Positions 1-7,540 of a DNA stretch of 7,540 bases are shown in pieces. A model generated the notes under the pieces. It was not told the DNA's origin. It was given only the letters and a program-made list of their open reading frames with translations, and did not search any database. The first letter of the stretch is position 1, and every line of letters starts with the position of its first letter. The translations under genes were made by a program, and so were the position numbers. The DNA comes from Amoebidium appalachense (Eukaryota > Protista > Ichthyosporea): the NCBI GenBank assembly GCA_963693365.1, contig CAVNZM010000107.1, positions 1-7,540 on the forward strand, read 5' to 3'.

Positions 1-1428
1 TCCGCTATCACGGCGGATATTGCCAAAGAAGTCGCCCTCGGCCACCTGCACGGCCCCCTCTCCCCGGCCCAATTCTTTGACGAATTTCCGGTCCACCGTT
101 CCTCCCCCATCGGCGCCGTTACCAAGAAAGGGAACCCCCCCAAGTACCGTCGAATCCACCACCTCTCCTGGCCCCGGGGTAGCAGTGTCAATGACAGCAT
201 CACCTACCCCGACGAACTTCAGTACATTCGCGCCCGGGACGTCACCCAGCTCATTCTCGACGCAGGCCCCGGCTGCTACATGGCCGTGGCAGATGTGCAG
301 GCTGCCTTCCGGCACATGCCCATCCGACCAGAAGACCATCACTTAATGGCATTCAAATGGCTGGGGCATTTTTACGTTGAAACCAGACTGCCCTTCGGCC
401 TGAAATCTAGCCCAGCCATCTGGGAACGGATCGCAGCCACCCTACAGTGGCTGGCACACCAGCACGGTATTACCCTCATCCGCCACTACGTAGACGACTG
501 GATTATAGTCGCCCCCACACAAGAGCAGTGCCAACGTCACCTATCCACCTTCCTGCAACTCTGCCGAGAGCTGCACATTGCCATCTCCGAAGACAAGATG
601 CAGGGCCCGGCTACCCGTGTCGTCTTCATCGGTATCGAATTCGACTCCATCGCCATGGAGGCACGAATCCCGGCTTCCAAGCTCTCGGACCTACTCGACC
701 TCACTTCCCACCCAAAGCCCACCATCACCATTCGGGACCTCCAGTCCCTCCTCGGCAAACTCACCTGGTGTGCCCAGCTGGTTCCCCCCGGGAGGGCCTT
801 CTCCCAGCGCCTATGGGCCCTTCTCCGGACCCACCCACACCTTGCCGGCCACCACCACATACGACTGACTGCTGCCGCCCGGGCCGACATAGCCGAATGG
901 CACCAGTTCCTCACATCATGGAATGGGGTGCACCTCATCACACCCCCCACATACACTACCCTGGCCACCGATGCTGCCGGATCGGTGGGTCTAGGAGGCC
1001 ACTGGCTCGACCAATGGTTCTTCATGCCCTGGTCCCCCTCCACCCAAGCCCTCTATGCTCATGAGGGTAAACTCGGTTCTTCCGTCATCGAACTCCTGGC
1101 CATCGCAGCCGCCGTGGCCCTCTGGGCCCCCTCCTGGTCCACCCACCATGTCCGTATTTTATGCGACAACACGGGTGCTGTGTCTGACCTGCACTCCCGG
1201 TCTTCCCCCCACCCCGTGATGGCCAAACTTATTCGGTTCATCACCCGCATGGAAATGCAATACCAATTTACGTTACAGGCATCCTACCTACCAGGACCCC
1301 TCAACCATCTGGCCGATGCCATTTCTCGTAACCAACTTCCCCGGGCCCGACGACTCCGACCTTCCCTGCAACCGGAGCCCTGCCCCTTCCCCTCCTGGGT
1401 CCACGAGTTCCTATCCCTCCCCTTGGGC

Positions 1429-1431
<3 letters not shown>
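1..1431 (+). CDS. Reverse transcriptase-RNase H of a DIRS/Ngaro-type element (5'-partial)
   Basis: Frame 1 is open from base 1, upstream of the ORF-track start at 280: SAITADIAKEVALGHLHGP...SSPIGAVTKKGNPPKYRRIHHLSWPRGSSVNDSI. RT motifs are ADVQAAFRHMPIRPED, LPFGLKSSPAIW and YVDD (487-498). RNase H motifs are TDAAG, IELLAI, CDN and NHLADAISR. Stop is TAA 1429-1431. Confidence 0.95.
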
Positions 1432-1460
<29 letters not shown>

Positions 1461-1462
1461 AG
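1427..1462 (+). promoter_or_regulatory. Putative spliceosomal branch point (GCTAAC), polypyrimidine tract and 3' splice acceptor (CAG) upstream of the YR
   Basis: GCTAAC at 1427-1432 matches the CTRAY branch consensus. An unbroken C tract runs to 1460 and the first downstream AG is at 1461-1462, 31 nt from the branch A. Function is inferred. Confidence 0.55.
1432..1460 (+). repeat. C29 homopolymer
   Basis: 29 consecutive C immediately follow the RT stop codon. The exact length may be unreliable. Confidence 0.97.
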
Positions 1463-1491
1463 ATCTCCCGTTCCGGAGCAACGCTGGCAGA

Positions 1492-2523
1492 TTGGCCCCC
1501 CACTTTGCTCCGGCCGAGCTGCTTCGAGCCACCACTACCCTGCAGGAATGCCAGGCCCTGAGTCTCAACCTCGACTCTCGGGCCTTTTACTCCCGGGTGC
1601 AAAAAGTGTTCATCGATTTCTGTGTGGCATCTCGGCTGCAATCCCCCTCCGGGTCCTCCCTCCCGGCCTCCCCACACACCGTGCAACTTTTTCTCGCCTG
1701 GTGTGCCCAACGAGGGGTACAGGCCTCTTCCTTAACCGGCTACAATTCGGCCATCACCAGGCTCCACCTCGACATGGGCCTCCCTGCTCCCTACCCCCAC
1801 GACAAGTCTCTGGCCTGGTTCCTACGGGGGGTGGGCAGATGGCAGCTTTCTCACAACATCCGACCCCGCTCATCCACCAGGGAACCCCTCCTGCCCTCCC
1901 ACCTCAGCCTACTCCATGGCCAGTGCCCCACCAAGGCCTCCTCGGCCAATCTCCGGCTATGGACGGCCCTCATCGTCGGTTTCTGTGGTCTCCTCCGTTC
2001 AGGGGAATTTACCTCCAAGACCCTGACTTCTTTCGACCCGTCCCGTCACGTTAAACGGAAAGACGTGACCTTCACCTACACCCCCACCGGTACTTTGTCC
2101 CATGCCACCCTCCACCTGCCAACCTCTAAGACGGATGTACAGGCCCGAGGTGTCAACGTCACTCTAGCTGCCCTGCCCCTCACCCACTTCTCCCCAGCCC
2201 ATCTCCTCCGGCAGTTCCTGGATACAACGTCCGGTCAACCCGACGACCCCCTCTTCAGTCTCGGTGGCATCCCCTACACCAAGAGTGCTTTCTCTGCCGA
2301 CTTCCGTGCCCTCCTCTCCCGGGCAGGCCTCTCACCCTCCCGGTTTGCCGGACACAGCCTCCGCATCGGGGGGGCCACAGCACTGGCTGAGGCCGGGGTC
2401 GACGACTCCCGGATCAAACAACTCGGCAGGTGGTCCTCCGACTGCTTCCTGATCTATACCCGACTTCGTCCGGCCTCCATTGCTGCCACCACCACACGTG
2501 TATTCGCCTCTATTCTTAAGTGA
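1492..2523 (+). CDS. Tyrosine recombinase (phage-integrase family) of the retrotransposon; true start uncertain
   Basis: The catalytic set is complete: R in GLLRSGEF (1996-1998), K in TSKTD, H-x-x-R in GHSLRIGGAT (from 2353), LGRWSS, and Y in CFLIY (2455-2457). There is an N-terminal core-binding-like region (FIDFC...LFLAW...SLTGYNSAI). The frame is open from 1432; the listed start is TTG and the first ATG is at 1774. Confidence 0.93.
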   Translation: MAPHFAPAELLRATTTLQECQALSLNLDSRAFYSRVQKVFIDFCVASRLQSPSGSSLPASPHTVQLFLAWCAQRGVQASSLTGYNSAITRLHLDMGLPAPYPHDKSLAWFLRGVGRWQLSHNIRPRSSTREPLLPSHLSLLHGQCPTKASSANLRLWTALIVGFCGLLRSGEFTSKTLTSFDPSRHVKRKDVTFTYTPTGTLSHATLHLPTSKTDVQARGVNVTLAALPLTHFSPAHLLRQFLDTTSGQPDDPLFSLGGIPYTKSAFSADFRALLSRAGLSPSRFAGHSLRIGGATALAEAGVDDSRIKQLGRWSSDCFLIYTRLRPASIAATTTRVFASILK

Positions 2524-2599
2524 AACCTTGAAGATACCGCCCCCACCCCATAATAGAAACACTTAAAAAATTATTCCCCATTCGGTTGTGTTTACCTCC

Positions 2600-3355
2600 T
2601 GTTGTTTTGTACGGGTCTAAGGGAGCAGAGTGCACAGAGGTGTCATGTAAAAACACGACTAACACATTAATGAGAGGGCAATCGGAGTTGTTCACGAGAC
2701 ATTGAAAGATTTCAAACAACAACTGAATCTTTATTGTGCTCTCGGTTCCTTTTGTACTTGCGACTTATCACCTTATCACAACTAAAGAGGGAGAACCAAT
2801 CGGTTCTATCAGAAGATAGAAAAACACATTCCGACAGAGCATACGCATTCCAACTTCCGATTAAACTAAAGTGTAGAAACTCTTACTTAAATAAATTAAG
2901 TAATTATACATCTAGTCACTATTAACTCACATATATATTTATGTTCGTCTCTATAAAGAAACTTATTTAAATACATATATTTCCTAACAGTCGACACTCT
3001 CAAAGTGAAGACACTTTGCAATAAACCGAATTCCATATATATCTATTGTCCAATCACAACACACATATATTAACAGACAGGAATGCACAACACAATCTAC
3101 AGATGTACTCGCTCGCGACTATTGGCGAGCCATCCTTTTGAGAACAAAACTAGGCCATTTTGAAATAAAGGAAAGACAACGAGTGAGGCTATAGCCAATC
3201 ACGCTACCTCTCAGATAAACAGAGGAGAGCAAACAGAAATAAAACACAATAAGTTCTTATCAGGCAAGAGAGCCAGGTGTGCACAGATCTACAGATATCT
3301 GTGCCCACAGAAACAAGGGAGAGAGAGATACGGGGGGGGGGGGGGGGGGGGGGGG

Positions 3356-3453
<98 letters not shown>

Positions 3454-3549
3454 GAGCACAAAGGAGGAAAGCAGACACGAATACAAACAAGCTAGGACAC
3501 ATACATACTTCAAGGCTCTTGCTGTCATACATGGTGACGTATTCCAACA
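2600..3549 (-). repeat. Candidate 3' LTR of the copia element
   Basis: The minus strand begins TGTTGGAATA at 3549, directly after the PPT. The only CAACA I found on the minus strand before the YR gene is at 2604-2600, which gives TGTTG...CAACA termini. A minus-strand AATAAA lies at 2735-2730. The start is well supported and the end is weak because the second LTR is not in the window. Confidence 0.4.
3315..3456. repeat. Compound polypurine tract: short (GA)n, G27 (3332-3358), then about 98 nt of (AG)n with two short G-run interruptions
   Basis: Seen directly in the sequence. Confidence 0.97.
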
Positions 3550-3560
3550 TCCCCACTCAA
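3550..3560 (-). other. Polypurine tract (plus-strand primer site) of the copia element
   Basis: The minus strand reads TTGAGTGGGGA|TGTTGG, the typical copia PPT/LTR junction pattern, downstream of pol. Confidence 0.7.
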
Positions 3561-3765
3561 GGGGTTGAAGTTTGTGTTCTCGTGTCTGTTGATGTGACGG
3601 TAGATGGGGTCCAAACACAGGAGGGGCCGTCACACTCAAGTTTCCCCACTCGAGGATGCAAACCGAAGATCCTTGAGGTGGGAAGGAGAGAATCAAAACT
3701 GAAGAGGCACACAACGACGGTTGCCTCTGAAGACTCGAAATAAGAAATCATGGTGGTTATCGGCG

Positions 3766-3780
3766 ATATATATATATATA
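3766..3780. repeat. (AT)n microsatellite, 15 nt
   Basis: ATATATATATATATA seen directly. Confidence 0.9.
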
Positions 3781-3824
3781 GATAGGAAACACTAGTGTAT
3801 GTGTGACGTGTTGGTGGCTAATGG

Positions 3825-4025
3825 TTTATACTGGGGACCACCCAGGTAAACACAAGACATGAACATCTTGTGGACTGATTTATAGACTGGTGGTCAACCA
3901 GTTAAGACACGGGGAAGGTGCATCCCGTGGACTAGGTTTAGACTGGCAGTCAACCAGCACGTCATGGCTATAGATAATTATTTATACTGGGACGCCATCC
4001 CAGTTCGACATCTATATAAGTCGAA
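3825..4025 (-). repeat. Degenerate tandem array of stem-loops in the copia 3' untranslated region
   Basis: TTTA(TA)(GA)CTGG...CCAG units have CTGG at 3831, 3887, 3943 (56-bp period) and 3987. Intervening 22-nt CAC...GTG hairpins at 3851-3872 and 3908-3929 are each followed by GACT. Confidence 0.8.
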
Positions 4026-4269
4026 TATAGAAGAAAACCAATATATATGGTGGGATATGAATATAAATAAACGACGGATGGTGGAGAATAATCCCCACTG
4101 AAGATGCACACATATGACGATGGAAGACTGAGTCCCCACTGATGAAGAGAAACGATGAGGAGTAGTAGACTTTCGTTGGGAGGCATCTTGATCACCGTAG
4201 GTGTGTCAACTGCTGTCCAGGGCCCCAACCTACTCAGAAACCACTCGATGATGAACACCAGTGCACGGG

Positions 4270-6129
4270 TCAGTCACGGAGACTGAGGTTGGCACGGTGT
4301 GTGTCGTGGGCCGTACCAGCCAGAGGCTTGGTGAAGATGTCGGCCAGGTTCTTCTTGGTGTCGATGTAGGTGACAGTGACGTCCCCACTGTTGATGTAGT
4401 CCTTTGTGTTGAAGTAACGAACGGCAATGTGCTTGGTCCGGTGCTTGATGGTGTTGGAGTGGACCAGAGCAATGGTGGACTGATTGTCACAGTACACGGG
4501 GGTGGGCTCGGTCATGGGGTAGCCCAGCTCCTTTAGTAGATCACGGTGCCAGACAACATCTTGCACGGCAGCATTGAGGGCCAGGAGCTCGGCCTCACAC
4601 GTGGAGGTTGCAGTGATCGTCTGCAGCTTGGAGTGGTAGGTGACGGGGGAGCCTTCGAGGAGGATGACGTACCCAGACGTGGAACGACGGGTGGTGGGGC
4701 AACCAGCAAAGTCAGAATCCGAGTAGCACTCAAGGATGGGCACCTTGCTGTTGGGGGCCTTCTTCTTGTAGTAGAGGCCGAGGTTGATGGTGCCGAGCAG
4801 GTAACGAACGACACGGAGGAGAAGCTCCCAGGCAGTCTTGGTGGGCTTGGAGCTGAATCGGCCGAGGTAGCCAATGGCATACGAGATGTCAGGCCGGGAG
4901 CACCGAGCAACCCACAGCAGACGGCCGAGGAGTTCACGGTAGGGGACGGTGGTGGGCAGGGATGAGTGGGAGGTCTCGTTGATGATGGTGCCCACGGGAA
5001 TAGGGGTGGCCTTAGGCTTGGCATCGACCAGGTTGAAGTCGGTGATGATGTCCTTGATGTAGGAGGACTGCAGCAGCTTGAGGGAGTCACGGGTGTACAG
5101 CAGTTGGGTGCCGAGGAAGATGTCTGGCAGACCGACCTTGCACTCGGCAGACTTCGTGATGTGACGAACAAGCCCCTGCATGATGGTGGAGTTCCGTGTG
5201 CAGGTGATGATGGCATCATCAACGTAGTTGCCCGAACGGATGATGTGCCCGTTGGGGAACTGACGGAAGTAGACACACGGATCGGAACGGAGACGGGTGA
5301 GGCCGTGGGCAATGAGAATGGAGTTGAAGAACTCGTACCATGCCAGGGATGCCTGCTTGAGTCCGTAGATGGCCTTCTTGAGTTTCCAGACTTTGTGTTC
5401 ATTGCCAGGGAGGATAAAACCAGGAGGTTGCTCCATGTACAAAGTCTCGTCGAGGGGGCTGTTGAGGAAGGCCGTGCTGATGTCGAGTTGATGGATCTCG
5501 TGGTCCTGTTGCACACCGAGGGCAAGCAGGGCACGGACGGAGGAGGACATGACGACGGGGGAAGAGTTTTCACCGTAGTCAACACCGTAGACTTGGGTGA
5601 AACCCTTGGCCACACCACGACCCTTGATCTTGGTGTCACCAGCAGAGTTGAGGACCTTCTCCGTGACAATCCACTTGAATCGGATGATGTTGGCATCGGA
5701 GGGGGGCTCAACTACGTCGAAGATGTCCTTGTCGATGAAAGCCTTGTACTCGGCAGTGAGGGCAGTCACCACTTCATCACCCTTGGTGCCAGAGCACAGC
5801 TTCTGAATTGACCGGGGCAGCTGAGACACATCAAGGCTGGGTCGGGAGATGCTCACCATAGCCATAGCAGGCCGGGAGGAGAGACGGGAGGAACGACGGG
5901 GAACGGTACGGAGGGGCTCAGGGGCCGGGGGGTTGTCTGTGACAGACACTCGGTGGTCGGGGATGGGGGCCTGGAAGCCAGGGATGGGTGCCGTGTTGAG
6001 GGGGGAGTCGGATAACACGGGGCTGGACGGGGCCGAGTGGAACTCCGGAGACCCAGGACGAACCGGGGTGAGATGACCAGGTACGTGGTCATTGACGGCA
6101 GGGGCCGGCAGCAGGGGTTGCTGACCGGT
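4270..6129 (-). CDS. Copia pol, RT-RNase H portion (continues from integrase across a frameshift)
   Basis: RT motifs are VAKGFTQVYGVDY, HQLDISTAFLN, LKKAIYGLKQAS and YVDD. Ty1/copia RNase H motifs are YSDSDFAG...RRSTSGY, STCEAE, YCDNQS, HRTKHI and NLADIFTKPL. The frame is open upstream of the listed GTG (6018) through the homopolymer at 6130-6142. Confidence 0.95.
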   Translation of the reverse strand, partial: TGQQPLLPAPAVNDHVPGHLTPVRPGSPEFHSAPSSPVLSDSPLNTAPIPGFQAPIPDHRVSVTDNPPAPEPLRTVPRRSSRLSSRPAMAMVSISRPSLDVSQLPRSIQKLCSGTKGDEVVTALTAEYKAFIDKDIFDVVEPPSDANIIRFKWIVTEKVLNSAGDTKIKGRGVAKGFTQVYGVDYGENSSPVVMSSSVRALLALGVQQDHEIHQLDISTAFLNSPLDETLYMEQPPGFILPGNEHKVWKLKKAIYGLKQASLAWYEFFNSILIAHGLTRLRSDPCVYFRQFPNGHIIRSGNYVDDAIITCTRNSTIMQGLVRHITKSAECKVGLPDIFLGTQLLYTRDSLKLLQSSYIKDIITDFNLVDAKPKATPIPVGTIINETSHSSLPTTVPYRELLGRLLWVARCSRPDISYAIGYLGRFSSKPTKTAWELLLRVVRYLLGTINLGLYYKKKAPNSKVPILECYSDSDFAGCPTTRRSTSGYVILLEGSPVTYHSKLQTITATSTCEAELLALNAAVQDVVWHRDLLKELGYPMTEPTPVYCDNQSTIALVHSNTIKHRTKHIAVRYFNTKDYINSGDVTVTYIDTKKNLADIFTKPLAGTAHDTHRANLSLRD

Positions 6130-7118
6130 GGGGGGGGGGGGGTGGGTGGAGCCACGGGGGCAGGTACACGACGGGGGGAACGACGGATAATCACCGACGG
6201 AATTTCATCGTCATCGGAATTGGAATTTCCGGAATGCAGGGATGAATCGATTGAGGTCGTCTGATTGGTGGCCTGCACAGAAATCTGATTGGATGCCGTG
6301 GTGAATTGTGATTCGTCGAAGACGACATCGCGGTAGAGGTTGACCGTGTTGCCACGTAGATTCATGATCTTGTGGGCTTTGTTGGTGATATCCCAGCCCA
6401 CGTAGGTGCCGAGTTTGACGGTAGAGGCCAACTTGTCTCGTTTGGATGCAGGGACGTGTACATAGGCTGGGCAGCCGAACACGTGCAGGTGGGAGATGTC
6501 AGGCTTGACACCGTAGAAAATTTCAAACGGTGTACGGCCATTGGCAGCTCTGGCCGGGGTCACGTTGATGATGTAGGCAGCATGCTTGAGAGCAGCTCCC
6601 CACAGTTTGGGGGAAAAGAAGTCGGCCTTGTCCTGATGAAGGAAGCACCGAACGATCTCATGCAGATCCCTCATCTTACGTTCAACGAAGCCGTTGAGTT
6701 GGGGGCAGTCAACCGGGGCAAATTCTTGAATGATGCCCTTGGACTGGCAGTACTGCTCCATAGCGTGGGAGGTGAACTCGGACCCAGAGTCTGAACGGAA
6801 GTGGGTCACCACCTTGTCGGGTTGCTTGTCAGTAGTCTCAACCAGGGCCTTGACGTATTCGAGAGTTTCGGATCGATCACGGAGGAGGTACACGATGGTG
6901 TAGCCGGAGGCATCACAGGTACACACGAGGGCCACCTTGTAGCCACCATAGGAGGCACAGGGAGGCTCGAAGAAGTCCATGTGCCACTTGGCACCGGGGA
7001 AGGGGCACTGGGTTCTGGTGCCGGAGAATGGGGCCTTGGTGGTCTTGCCGGAGACACAACCGAAGCAGTCAGTGGTGTCAGCCACTGAGAGGGATGAGGG
7101 GAGGCCTGTCACGAGGTC
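6130..7118 (-). CDS. Copia pol, integrase portion
   Basis: CxxC (CFGC) of the HHCC finger, the D,D(35)E core (WHMD, RSDSGSEF, NGFVER) and the copia SH3-like region LHVFGCPAYVHVP...RDKL...YVGW...RDVVFDE are present. A frameshift bounds each side. Confidence 0.93.
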
Positions 7119-7540
7119 ACCCTCACCATCTTGGTGAGGGTGGACAGGGCACGATGCCCGAGACGGTGGTGCCAGAGCTGAGGATCATTGTTGACCTTGA
7201 CGTTGGCTACCAGAGCAGTGACGGTCCGAGAGGGATGGAGGGACATATCTCATAGTCAGTGATGAAGGTACAGTCCATCTGTGCCTGTGAGGGAACACAC
7301 GATGTTGCCACCACGAGTGTAGAGGTATGATGGGAATTCATCCTCATCATCGAGGTGGGCAAGGAGGCCCGACTTGGAGGCCAGTGAGGGTGATATCAGG
7401 AAGGCTGGGGAGTCGGGTACATCGAGGGTGTTGAGGCTCAGTACTGATGTTACTCCGTTGTAGGTGACGGCCAGGTTGATGACACCACGGTGATGTGCAG
7501 TGACGATGCCGAGGCCGTGGACGTCAGTCGGGGGGCATGG
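7119..7540 (-). pseudogene. Copia protease C-terminal region and GAG-pre-integrase segment, with two in-frame TGA stops (not in the ORF track)
   Basis: Read from 7540: PCPPTDVHGLGIVTAHHRGVINLAVTYNGVTSVLSLNTLDVPDSPAFLISPS...TDGLYLHH*L*DMSLHPSRTVTALVANVKVNNDPQLWHHRLGHRALSTLTKMV. GLY and LWHxRLGH are copia hallmarks. Stops are at 7258-7256 and 7252-7250. Confidence 0.85.

What the first reader, a model, noticed from the sequence alone, without database searches (positions are those of the whole stretch)
3825..4025. Periodic hairpin array with compensatory base changes in the copia 3' UTR: candidate undescribed structured RNA element
Seen, hairpin A in four copies, all with a 5-nt loop ending in CA: CTGGG-GACCA-CCCAG (3831-3845), ACTGGT-GGTCA-ACCAGT (3886-3902), CTGGC-AGTCA-ACCAG (3943-3957) and ACTGGGA-CGCCA-TCCCAGT (3986-4004). 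The loop-closing pair varies G-C, T-A, C/A, A-T, and the C/A mismatch becomes a U-G wobble on the minus (copia sense) strand. Hairpin B has two 22-nt copies, CACAAGA..TCTTGTG (3851-3872) and CACGGG..CCCGTG (3908-3929), with a double compensatory swap AA/TT to GG/CC. A1-A3 have an exact 56-bp period, A1 and A4 share upstream TGGCTA..TTTATACTGGG, and a further stem TTCGAC/GTCGAA lies at 4004-4025. Inference: pairing is preserved while sequence drifts, which suggests selection on a multivalent RNA signal (packaging, export, localisation or translation) of the genomic RNA.
Basis: partly seen in the sequence, partly recalled or inferred. Interest (0 to 1): 0.8.

Follow-up and report, generated by a model that had tools for sequence, protein, structure and literature searches.

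The report
Hairpin array in copia retrotransposon tail
A copia-type jumping gene carries, between its last gene and its right-hand end repeat, seven small hairpin-forming repeats whose copies changed sequence while keeping their base pairing, which likely makes them a protein-docking signal on the element's RNA, though a copying quirk with no function could also explain them.

Summary
All seven hairpins sit at the stated coordinates, and the cluster exceeds chance (0 of 2000 shuffles). It lies in the 720-nt linker between the copia pol stop (4270) and the polypurine tract (3550-3558), and travels with the element; it is not a separate MITE or satellite. It arose by duplication of a 56-nt two-hairpin unit: 3 of 11 pairs changed on both sides, none broke (P about 0.002 under independent changes). 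All covariation is between repeats inside one element. Among family copies in public runs no compensatory change was listed, 1 of 11 variable sites lies in a stem (P 0.02-0.2 by counting choice), and that one breaks a pair in an amplified variant. A two-base block swap and a 4-nt loop inversion are also signatures of template switching. No independent homologue, Rfam family or expression evidence was found. Best reading (0.45): a multivalent RNA hairpin platform for post-transcriptional handling of the genomic RNA, like the MusD transport element by position. Repeats and palindromes in this linker are a known, unexplained feature of other LTR retrotransposons.

The parts
4270..6204 (-). copia pol, RT-RNase H frame; its stop codon at 4270-4272 opens the linker
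   Evidence: ORF; Pfam RVT_2 (PF07727) E 9.8e-59; best database relatives 38% identical
5853..7184 (-). copia pol, integrase frame (rve + SH3_retrovirus) upstream of RT, the Ty1/copia order; in another frame than RT in this copy
3550..4269 (-). pol-to-LTR linker (3' untranslated region), 720 nt, no ATG-started ORF longer than 72 aa
4004..4025 (-). hairpin C: 6-bp stem, 10-nt AT-rich loop; same geometry as B, loop variable among copies
3986..4004 (-). hairpin A4: 7-bp stem, 5-nt loop
3942..3958 (-). hairpin A3: 6 pairs on the sense strand, two of them G-U wobbles that are mismatches on +
   Evidence: -7.2 kcal/mol on -, -3.7 on +
3908..3929 (-). hairpin B2: 6-bp stem, 10-nt loop; one pair broken in a minority variant (3928)
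3886..3902 (-). hairpin A2: 6-bp stem, 5-nt loop
3851..3872 (-). hairpin B1: 6-bp stem, 10-nt loop (7 bp in this copy's minority allele)
3831..3845 (-). hairpin A1: 5-bp stem, 5-nt loop complementary over 4 nt to the loops of A2 and A3
3550..3558 (-). terminal polypurine tract, directly before the TG that starts the 3' LTR
   Evidence: a related contig in X3 shares 3547-3572 and leaves the window left of 3547; short inverted repeat across the junction
3643..3650 (-). upstream copy of the polypurine-tract octamer
4092..4099 (-). upstream copy of the polypurine-tract octamer
4133..4140 (-). upstream copy of the polypurine-tract octamer (a fifth match at 4382 lies inside pol)
2524..3549 (-). 3' LTR, starting at 3549; its far end lies somewhere in this interval and was not determined
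   Evidence: inferred from the PPT-TG junction and higher summed depth in bin 3460-3524 of X1

Best explanation
The array is a set of seven small hairpin-forming repeats in the pol-to-LTR linker of a Ty1/copia retrotransposon, and it likely acts on the element's genomic RNA as a multi-site docking platform for a protein that handles the RNA after transcription (export or routing to particle assembly). Shown: position, repeat origin from a 56-nt A+B unit, intact pairing in both full units, and inheritance with the element body. Inferred: the unit was duplicated by slippage during reverse transcription; mismatches were repaired stepwise or by template switching from the opposite arm; selection on the RNA kept the repaired forms. 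Inferred: the recognised feature is the A hairpin with its conserved 3' side and U/A-rich tail, present four times, so single copies are partly dispensable. Untested: transcription, folding in cells, the binding protein and the step affected.
For: Units 1 and 2 differ at 6 of 22 stem sites and these form 3 complete complementary swaps, 0 of 11 pairs broken; the chance that 6 changed sites fall into 3 whole pairs is 0.0022, and simulations with independent changes keep all 11 pairs in 0.04-1.2% of runs. Swaps within the stems are not expected of a double-stranded DNA binding site (inference). Among family copies in X1, X7 and X20, 1 of 11 listed substitution sites in 3831-4025 is in a stem against 4.7 expected (P 0.018), and none is in an A loop. 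A3 carries two changes tolerated only on the sense strand. Each unit folded alone on the sense strand gives the proposed hairpins as its best structure. The 100-nt windows over the array have sense-strand z of -1.4 to -2.8. Position matches retroelement transport elements: the MusD MTE lies next to the 3' LTR and needs stem-loops and a kissing contact (PMC4588558, PMC3362945, passages). The linker is 720 nt where classic copia linkers average 78 nt (PMC2829016, section 6).
Against: No independent homologue: pattern and protein scans found only chance matches. No compensatory change among family copies; the one stem variant (3928, 3.7% of depth in X1, 6.0% in X7, also the X20 contig) breaks a B2 pair with no partner change listed. 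The stem-depletion P rises to 0.06-0.20 if 3857 counts as stem or the AT-rich C loop is dropped. The tool's shuffle control for the two-row alignment is 58 of 500. Stems changed about as fast as loops between units, with a two-base block swap and a 4-nt loop inversion, as template switching predicts. On the sense strand in whole-region folding, A1, A2, A3 have mean pair probabilities of 0.02-0.50 without a span limit because repeats cross-pair; the + strand folds better, and the majority B closing pair is a wobble only on +. Two windows inside pol reach similar z (-2.2, -2.5). One X7 contig joins 3727 to 4269, so a relative may lack the array.
Confidence: 0.45

Rival explanations
1. No function: a short palindrome-rich unit was duplicated by reverse-transcriptase slippage, and template switching between arms keeps regenerating perfect stems.
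For: Template switching creates and repairs stems and yields multi-base compensatory changes and 4-nt inversions of partly self-complementary loops (PMC8794818, abstract and section 7). The adjacent double swap in B and the inverted 4-nt core between the A1 and A2 loops fit this. Stems diverged as fast as loops between units. A stem-breaking variant has spread; a possible array-less relative exists. Family-specific tandem arrays in this region are common and unexplained (PMC11963269).
Against: Template switching would have to hit three pairs in two hairpins and leave no mismatch; family variants are somewhat depleted in stems; the same paper reports that structure-breaking events rarely get fixed, i.e. 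it sees the mechanism working with selection.
Confidence: 0.28
2. DNA-level cis-regulatory palindromes, or a hairpin trigger for small RNAs, as proposed for the repeated motifs of Sireviruses.
For: Sirevirus linkers hold about four PPT copies and palindromic repeats with a CGG-CCG core and variable inner symmetry (PMC2829016, sections 6 and 9); this linker holds four PPT copies and TGG-CCA-cored palindromes. TATA-like hexamers follow the A hairpins on the sense strand. Maize palindromes form hairpins and are siRNA hotspots (PMC4728375, abstract and section 16). One look-alike of the A-linker-B geometry lies in the LTR interval at 3273-3304 (4 of 3000 shuffles).
Against: Complementary swaps inside stems and a 9-nt versus 7-nt arm spacing (A4) do not suit a dimeric DNA-binding site; there is no downstream extra gene; exact A motifs are absent from the LTR interval and the covariance model does not score the LTR look-alike at E 5 or less; stems of 5-7 bp are short for Dicer substrates (own knowledge).
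Confidence: 0.15
3. A reverse-transcription aid: hairpins pause reverse transcriptase or help RNase H choose among the four polypurine tracts.
For: The array sits between two pairs of PPT copies (3550, 3643 and 4092, 4133); structure near the PPT has been proposed to guide PPT processing (PMC2829016, passage). The + strand, which is the first cDNA strand, also folds these stems with DNA parameters.
Against: The array is 270-480 nt from the terminal PPT, which has its own inverted repeat; A3 wobbles favour the sense strand.
Confidence: 0.08
4. A separate MITE, SINE or satellite inserted into this copy.
For: An AT-rich direct repeat flanks the array in some copies (loose ends at 3791; alignment); one X7 contig skips 3728-4268.
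Against: A 2431-nt X13 contig spans 3791-5400 and a 414-nt X3 contig spans 3707-4122 with 6 and 2 differences; summed depth over the array is of the same order as over pol; few single-contig loose ends start inside the array. No terminal inverted repeats; TRF reports no array.
Confidence: 0.04

Closest known systems
MusD transport element (MTE) and related retroelement RNA export elements
   Same: Multi-stem-loop region next to the 3' LTR of an LTR retroelement; a loop-loop contact is possible here and is required in MTE (PMC4588558, PMC3362945, passages).
   Different: MTE is about 400 nt, in a retrovirus-like mouse element, and functionally proven; this is about 200 nt of small repeated hairpins in a Ty1/copia element, with no function tested. 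Sequence similarity to MTE was not tested directly; Rfam gave no hit.
Sirevirus linker: multiple PPTs and palindromic repeated motifs
   Same: Long linker, four copies of a PPT octamer, repeated palindromes with a three-base core and variable inner pairs, inverted repeat at the PPT/LTR junction (PMC2829016).
   Different: Octamer differs from AGGGGGAG and abuts the LTR instead of lying 10 bp upstream; core is TGG-CCA; four A copies instead of eight or more; none exact in the LTR; no env-like gene, although Sirevirus linker motifs occur only with env.
Tandem arrays between pol and the 3' LTR of Retand and other plant elements
   Same: Family-specific repeats in the same region, origin and function unknown (PMC11963269).
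   Different: Those are Ty3/gypsy arrays of three or more copies found by TRF; this array is short, about 65% identical between units, missed by TRF, and shows paired changes in stems.

Membership tests
Ty1/copia LTR retrotransposon | integrase upstream of an RVT_2-type RT and RNase H | tested here: met
Ty1/copia LTR retrotransposon | PPT followed by a TG-starting 3' LTR | tested here: met
Ty1/copia LTR retrotransposon | paired LTRs, primer binding site, target-site duplication | not testable with these tools
   5' end lies outside the window; no genome held
Sirevirus | AGGGGGAG octamer 10 bp upstream of the 3' LTR | tested here: not met
   the only match lies on + in the GA microsatellite (3403); the PPT abuts the LTR
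Sirevirus | multiple PPT copies in the linker | tested here: met
   four copies in the linker, of a different octamer
Sirevirus | eight or more CGG-CCG palindromic motifs clustered in the LTR | tested here: not met
   no C[CT]GG..CC[AG]G match in 2524-3549; four TGG-CCA motifs in the linker only
Sirevirus | RT phylogeny within the Sirevirus clade | not tested
   no tree built; best hits 32-38% identical
Retroelement RNA transport element (MTE/CTE/RTE type) | position between coding region and 3' LTR, multiple stem-loops | tested here: met
   (predicted folding only)
Retroelement RNA transport element (MTE/CTE/RTE type) | match to a described RNA family | tested here: not met
   four Rfam matches at E 1.5-9.4, all far below gathering scores, none a transport element
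Retroelement RNA transport element (MTE/CTE/RTE type) | confers export or expression on a reporter RNA; binds an export factor | not testable with these tools
   needs experiment
Conserved structured RNA (covariation standard) | significant covariation among independent homologues | tested here: inconclusive
   only two internal repeats could be aligned; no homologue found; no compensatory variant among family copies
MITE or satellite insertion | terminal inverted repeats or long head-to-tail array, independent of the host element | tested here: not met

The most novel reading that the evidence does not exclude
The array is a folded RNA module, not just a row of hairpins: the A1 loop pairs with the complementary A2 or A3 loop (4 nt, with a G-U wobble for A3 that works only on the sense strand), within one RNA or between two, giving a Ty1/copia element a 3'-located kissing-loop signal for export or genome dimerisation, gained by one subfamily that then out-amplified its array-less relatives.
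Probability: 0.12. Interest if true: 0.72.

Novelty: new variant of a known kind. Interest (0 to 1): 0.4.

Why it matters
Repeats between pol and the 3' LTR are common in LTR retrotransposons and their function is stated to be unknown (PMC11963269). Here the repeats are small, their pairing is kept through paired changes, and natural variants exist (a stem-breaking one, perhaps an array-less relative), so the question is testable with a 200-nt RNA. A positive result would give Ty1/copia elements a 3' structured RNA signal of the kind proven in mouse MusD. A negative one would be a clean case of template switching mimicking covariation.

Tried and rejected
No whole genome is held, so paralogous families could not be pulled out. 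Rfam: nothing near a gathering score. Two-hairpin DNA patterns: 1 match in metagenome contigs, 9 and 30 in viral contigs, 0 for a 23-nt exact word in prokaryote genomes; none of the 40 loci aligns to the window by blastn at E 1e-3. L010 has both stems paired and scored 16.8 bits, but it was selected by the pattern and lies inside a 354-aa phage ORF: rejected as chance. Protein-led locus scans: 0 of 9 viral and 0 of 79 prokaryotic stretches confirmed. Protein search: 1573 copia RTs, best 38% identical, no DNA context. No RNA holder listed; X20 is RNA only by guess, so nothing is concluded on expression. Run X15 shows G>A at 3989-3991 and 4003 and C>T on other contigs, sparing CpG, with cover collapsing in the GC-richer part: read as a cytosine-converted library and dropped from the variant count (5 of 19 rows dropped for this reason: 3989, 3990, 3991, 4003, 4038; 3 more rows, 3824 twice and 4030, lie outside 3831-4025). 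Those changes would have looked like false compensation. The variant table was cut (66 rows not shown), so no stem-versus-pol rate comparison was possible. Helitron 3' end considered by eye (CTAG 2 nt after B2): geometry does not fit, from recalled features. Sigma-70 promoter/terminator scan is not meaningful for this element and showed nothing above chance. Earlier-findings look-ups returned nothing. Host organism not determined.

Full report
Setting. The window holds two retroelements tail to tail. On + (1-2523) lie an RVT_1 frame and a tyrosine-recombinase frame, a DIRS-type arrangement; on - lie integrase (rve, SH3) and RVT_2 frames in Ty1/copia order. The copia RT-RNase H frame stops at 4270-4272. 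A purine tract at 3550-3558 is followed directly by TG at 3549 on the sense strand. A related contig in run X3 shares 3547-3572 and leaves the window left of 3547, and a short inverted repeat spans the junction, as described for many copia elements (PMC2829016, section 8). So the finding lies in a 720-nt pol-to-LTR linker. Classic copia linkers average 78 nt with one PPT (PMC2829016, section 6); this one has four copies of its octamer (3550, 3643, 4092, 4133; a fifth match lies in pol at 4382). The host is a eukaryote by inference from the element types; it was not identified, and no genome is held.

Observation. All seven hairpins are at the quoted coordinates. Five non-overlapping perfect hairpins occur in 3820-4030, and 0 of 2000 shuffles reach five, although two other tiles of the window reach four. 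Folding z is -2.84 (sense) and -4.18 (+). The A motif recurs at 56, 56 and 44 nt. Two full A+B units align far above shuffles, with two offsetting 1-nt gaps; A3 lacks a B hairpin, and A4 has one more pair and is joined to C, which has B's geometry but not its sequence. A covariance model from the two units scores A3 at E 0.027 and A4+C at E 0.15, and nothing else in the window convincingly (7 matches at E 5 or less, two by construction). TRF does not report the array.

Covariation between repeats. Six of 22 stem sites differ between units 1 and 2, and they form three complete complementary swaps; 11 of 11 pairs stay paired in both. Under independent placement the chance of three whole pairs is 0.0022; simulations at 20-33% divergence keep all 11 Watson-Crick pairs in 0.04-1.2% of runs, or 0.2-7.9% if sense-strand wobbles are allowed. 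Against this, the tool's own shuffle control gives 58 of 500, because two rows carry little information, and the hairpins were picked after the fact. Stems changed about as often as loops and linkers. That, the two-base block swap in B and the inverted 4-nt core between the A1 and A2 loops match template-switch mutation, which creates and repairs stems in one step (PMC8794818, abstract and section 7). The pattern is therefore not chance, but it does not by itself prove selection.

Variation among family copies. Twenty of 24 listed runs hold the stretch or part of it, from six studies, none on record as RNA. I laid 6 of the 24. X1 and X7 break into hundreds of short contigs at very high summed depth, as expected of a high-copy family (summed depth is not a copy number). 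Long single contigs in X13 (3791-5400) and X3 (3707-4122) carry the array together with its flanks, and depth over the array is of the same order as over pol, so it is part of the element and not a free MITE or satellite. One search lists 19 substitution rows; I dropped five that come from X15 and three outside 3831-4025, leaving 11 sites. One is in a stem against 4.7 expected (P 0.018), but P is 0.06-0.20 under three other counting choices. No compensatory pair is listed. The stem site, 3928, breaks a B2 pair in 3.7% (X1) and 6.0% (X7) of depth and in the X20 contig, with no partner change listed, so an amplified variant tolerates it. At 3857 most copies differ from the window, making the B1 closing pair like B2's: a wobble on +, a mismatch on the sense strand. 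A3 has two wobbles that work only on the sense strand. Strand evidence is thus two to one for the sense RNA, which is weak. X15 shows G>A on some contigs and C>T on others while sparing CpG: I read it as a cytosine-converted library, and its changes would have mimicked compensation. One X7 contig (depth 270, like the diverged pol contigs of that run at 262-305) joins 3727 to 4269 with unknown letters between; a sister lineage may lack the array.

Folding. Each unit folded alone on the sense strand gives the proposed hairpins as best structure. In the whole array or linker without a span limit, B1, B2, A4 and C persist (mean pair probability 0.64-0.99) while A1-A3 do not (0.02-0.50), because repeats cross-pair; a 60-nt span limit raises some of them. 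The A1 loop is complementary over 4 nt to A2 (-3.8 kcal/mol as free oligomers) and, with a wobble, to A3 (-2.3); B2 and C loops self-pair about as well, A4 does not fit, and a loop inversion or two transitions would give this complementarity without selection. It is a lead only.

Homologues. None was found outside the family: Rfam, pattern scans, protein-led scans and checks of all 40 loci gave chance matches only; these collections are mostly prokaryotic and viral, so this is weak evidence of absence. The nearest RTs are 38% identical. An A-linker-B look-alike lies in the LTR interval at 3273-3304 (4 of 3000 shuffles), but the covariance model does not score it, and B geometry alone also occurs in the other element's coding sequence at 966.

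Mechanism. I put 0.45 on a selected, multivalent hairpin platform on the genomic RNA that binds a protein for export or routing. Position favours this over packaging: transport elements such as the MusD MTE lie next to the 3' LTR (PMC4588558, PMC3362945, passages), while retroviral packaging signals are placed at the 5' end in the abstracts listed. Rivals: slippage plus template switching without function (0.28); DNA-level palindromes or a small-RNA trigger as in Sireviruses (0.15; PMC2829016 sections 6, 8, 9 and passages; PMC4728375 abstract and section 16); a reverse-transcription aid (0.08); a separate insertion (0.04).

Comparison and novelty. It works like, at most, an MTE-type element, but is not shown to be one. 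It shares the Sirevirus linker plan but fails the Sirevirus octamer and LTR-motif tests. Family-specific arrays of unknown function in this region are known (PMC11963269, passages). Ten literature searches surfaced no description of a copia linker hairpin array with paired changes; the library lacks most subscription papers, I could not search by host name, and I read no supplements. Papers not cited by section were seen only as search listings. Verdict: real, a new variant of a known kind, function unproven; interest 0.4.

Noticed in passing
window 1-2523 (+): DIRS-type tyrosine-recombinase retroelement: RVT_1 frame (1-1431) and phage-integrase-family frame (1432-2523), separated by a stop and a 29-nt C run; it faces the copia tail to tail.
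   Followed up: partly
window 3550-4140: Four copies of the PPT octamer in the linker, two on each side of the array, a Sirevirus-like plan in a non-Sirevirus copia; the blocks left and right of the array also resemble each other weakly.
   Followed up: partly
window 3273-3304: Look-alike of the A-linker-B geometry in the LTR interval with an 8-bp stem; 4 of 3000 shuffles, but not scored by the covariance model.
   Followed up: partly
window 2702-3149: Five perfect hairpins with 4-nt loops of similar A/G-rich make-up on + (2702, 2792, 2804, 3001, 3136) plus an 8-bp AT stem at 2883, in the presumed LTR; a possible second hairpin set and a control for template switching.
   Followed up: no
window 3933-4070, run X15: C>T and G>A changes on separate contigs that spare CpG suggest a converted library and methylated CpGs in this element; inferred, library type not on record.
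   Followed up: partly
window 3727 to 4269, run X7: One contig joins these places, skipping the whole array; may stand for a sister lineage without it.
   Followed up: no
window 3316-3456: A 27-nt G run followed by a GA microsatellite of about 50 units inside the presumed LTR U3.
   Followed up: no
window 5853-6204 and 7184-7256: The copia pol of this copy is split over different frames, one change falling near a G run at about 6127-6140; whether real or an assembly error was not tested.
   Followed up: no
window 3547-3736 and 4452-4944, runs X1, X3, X7, X13: Diverged sister families (about 80-90% alike) share the PPT region and parts of pol but did not lay on the array at 80% likeness in the rows shown.
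   Followed up: partly
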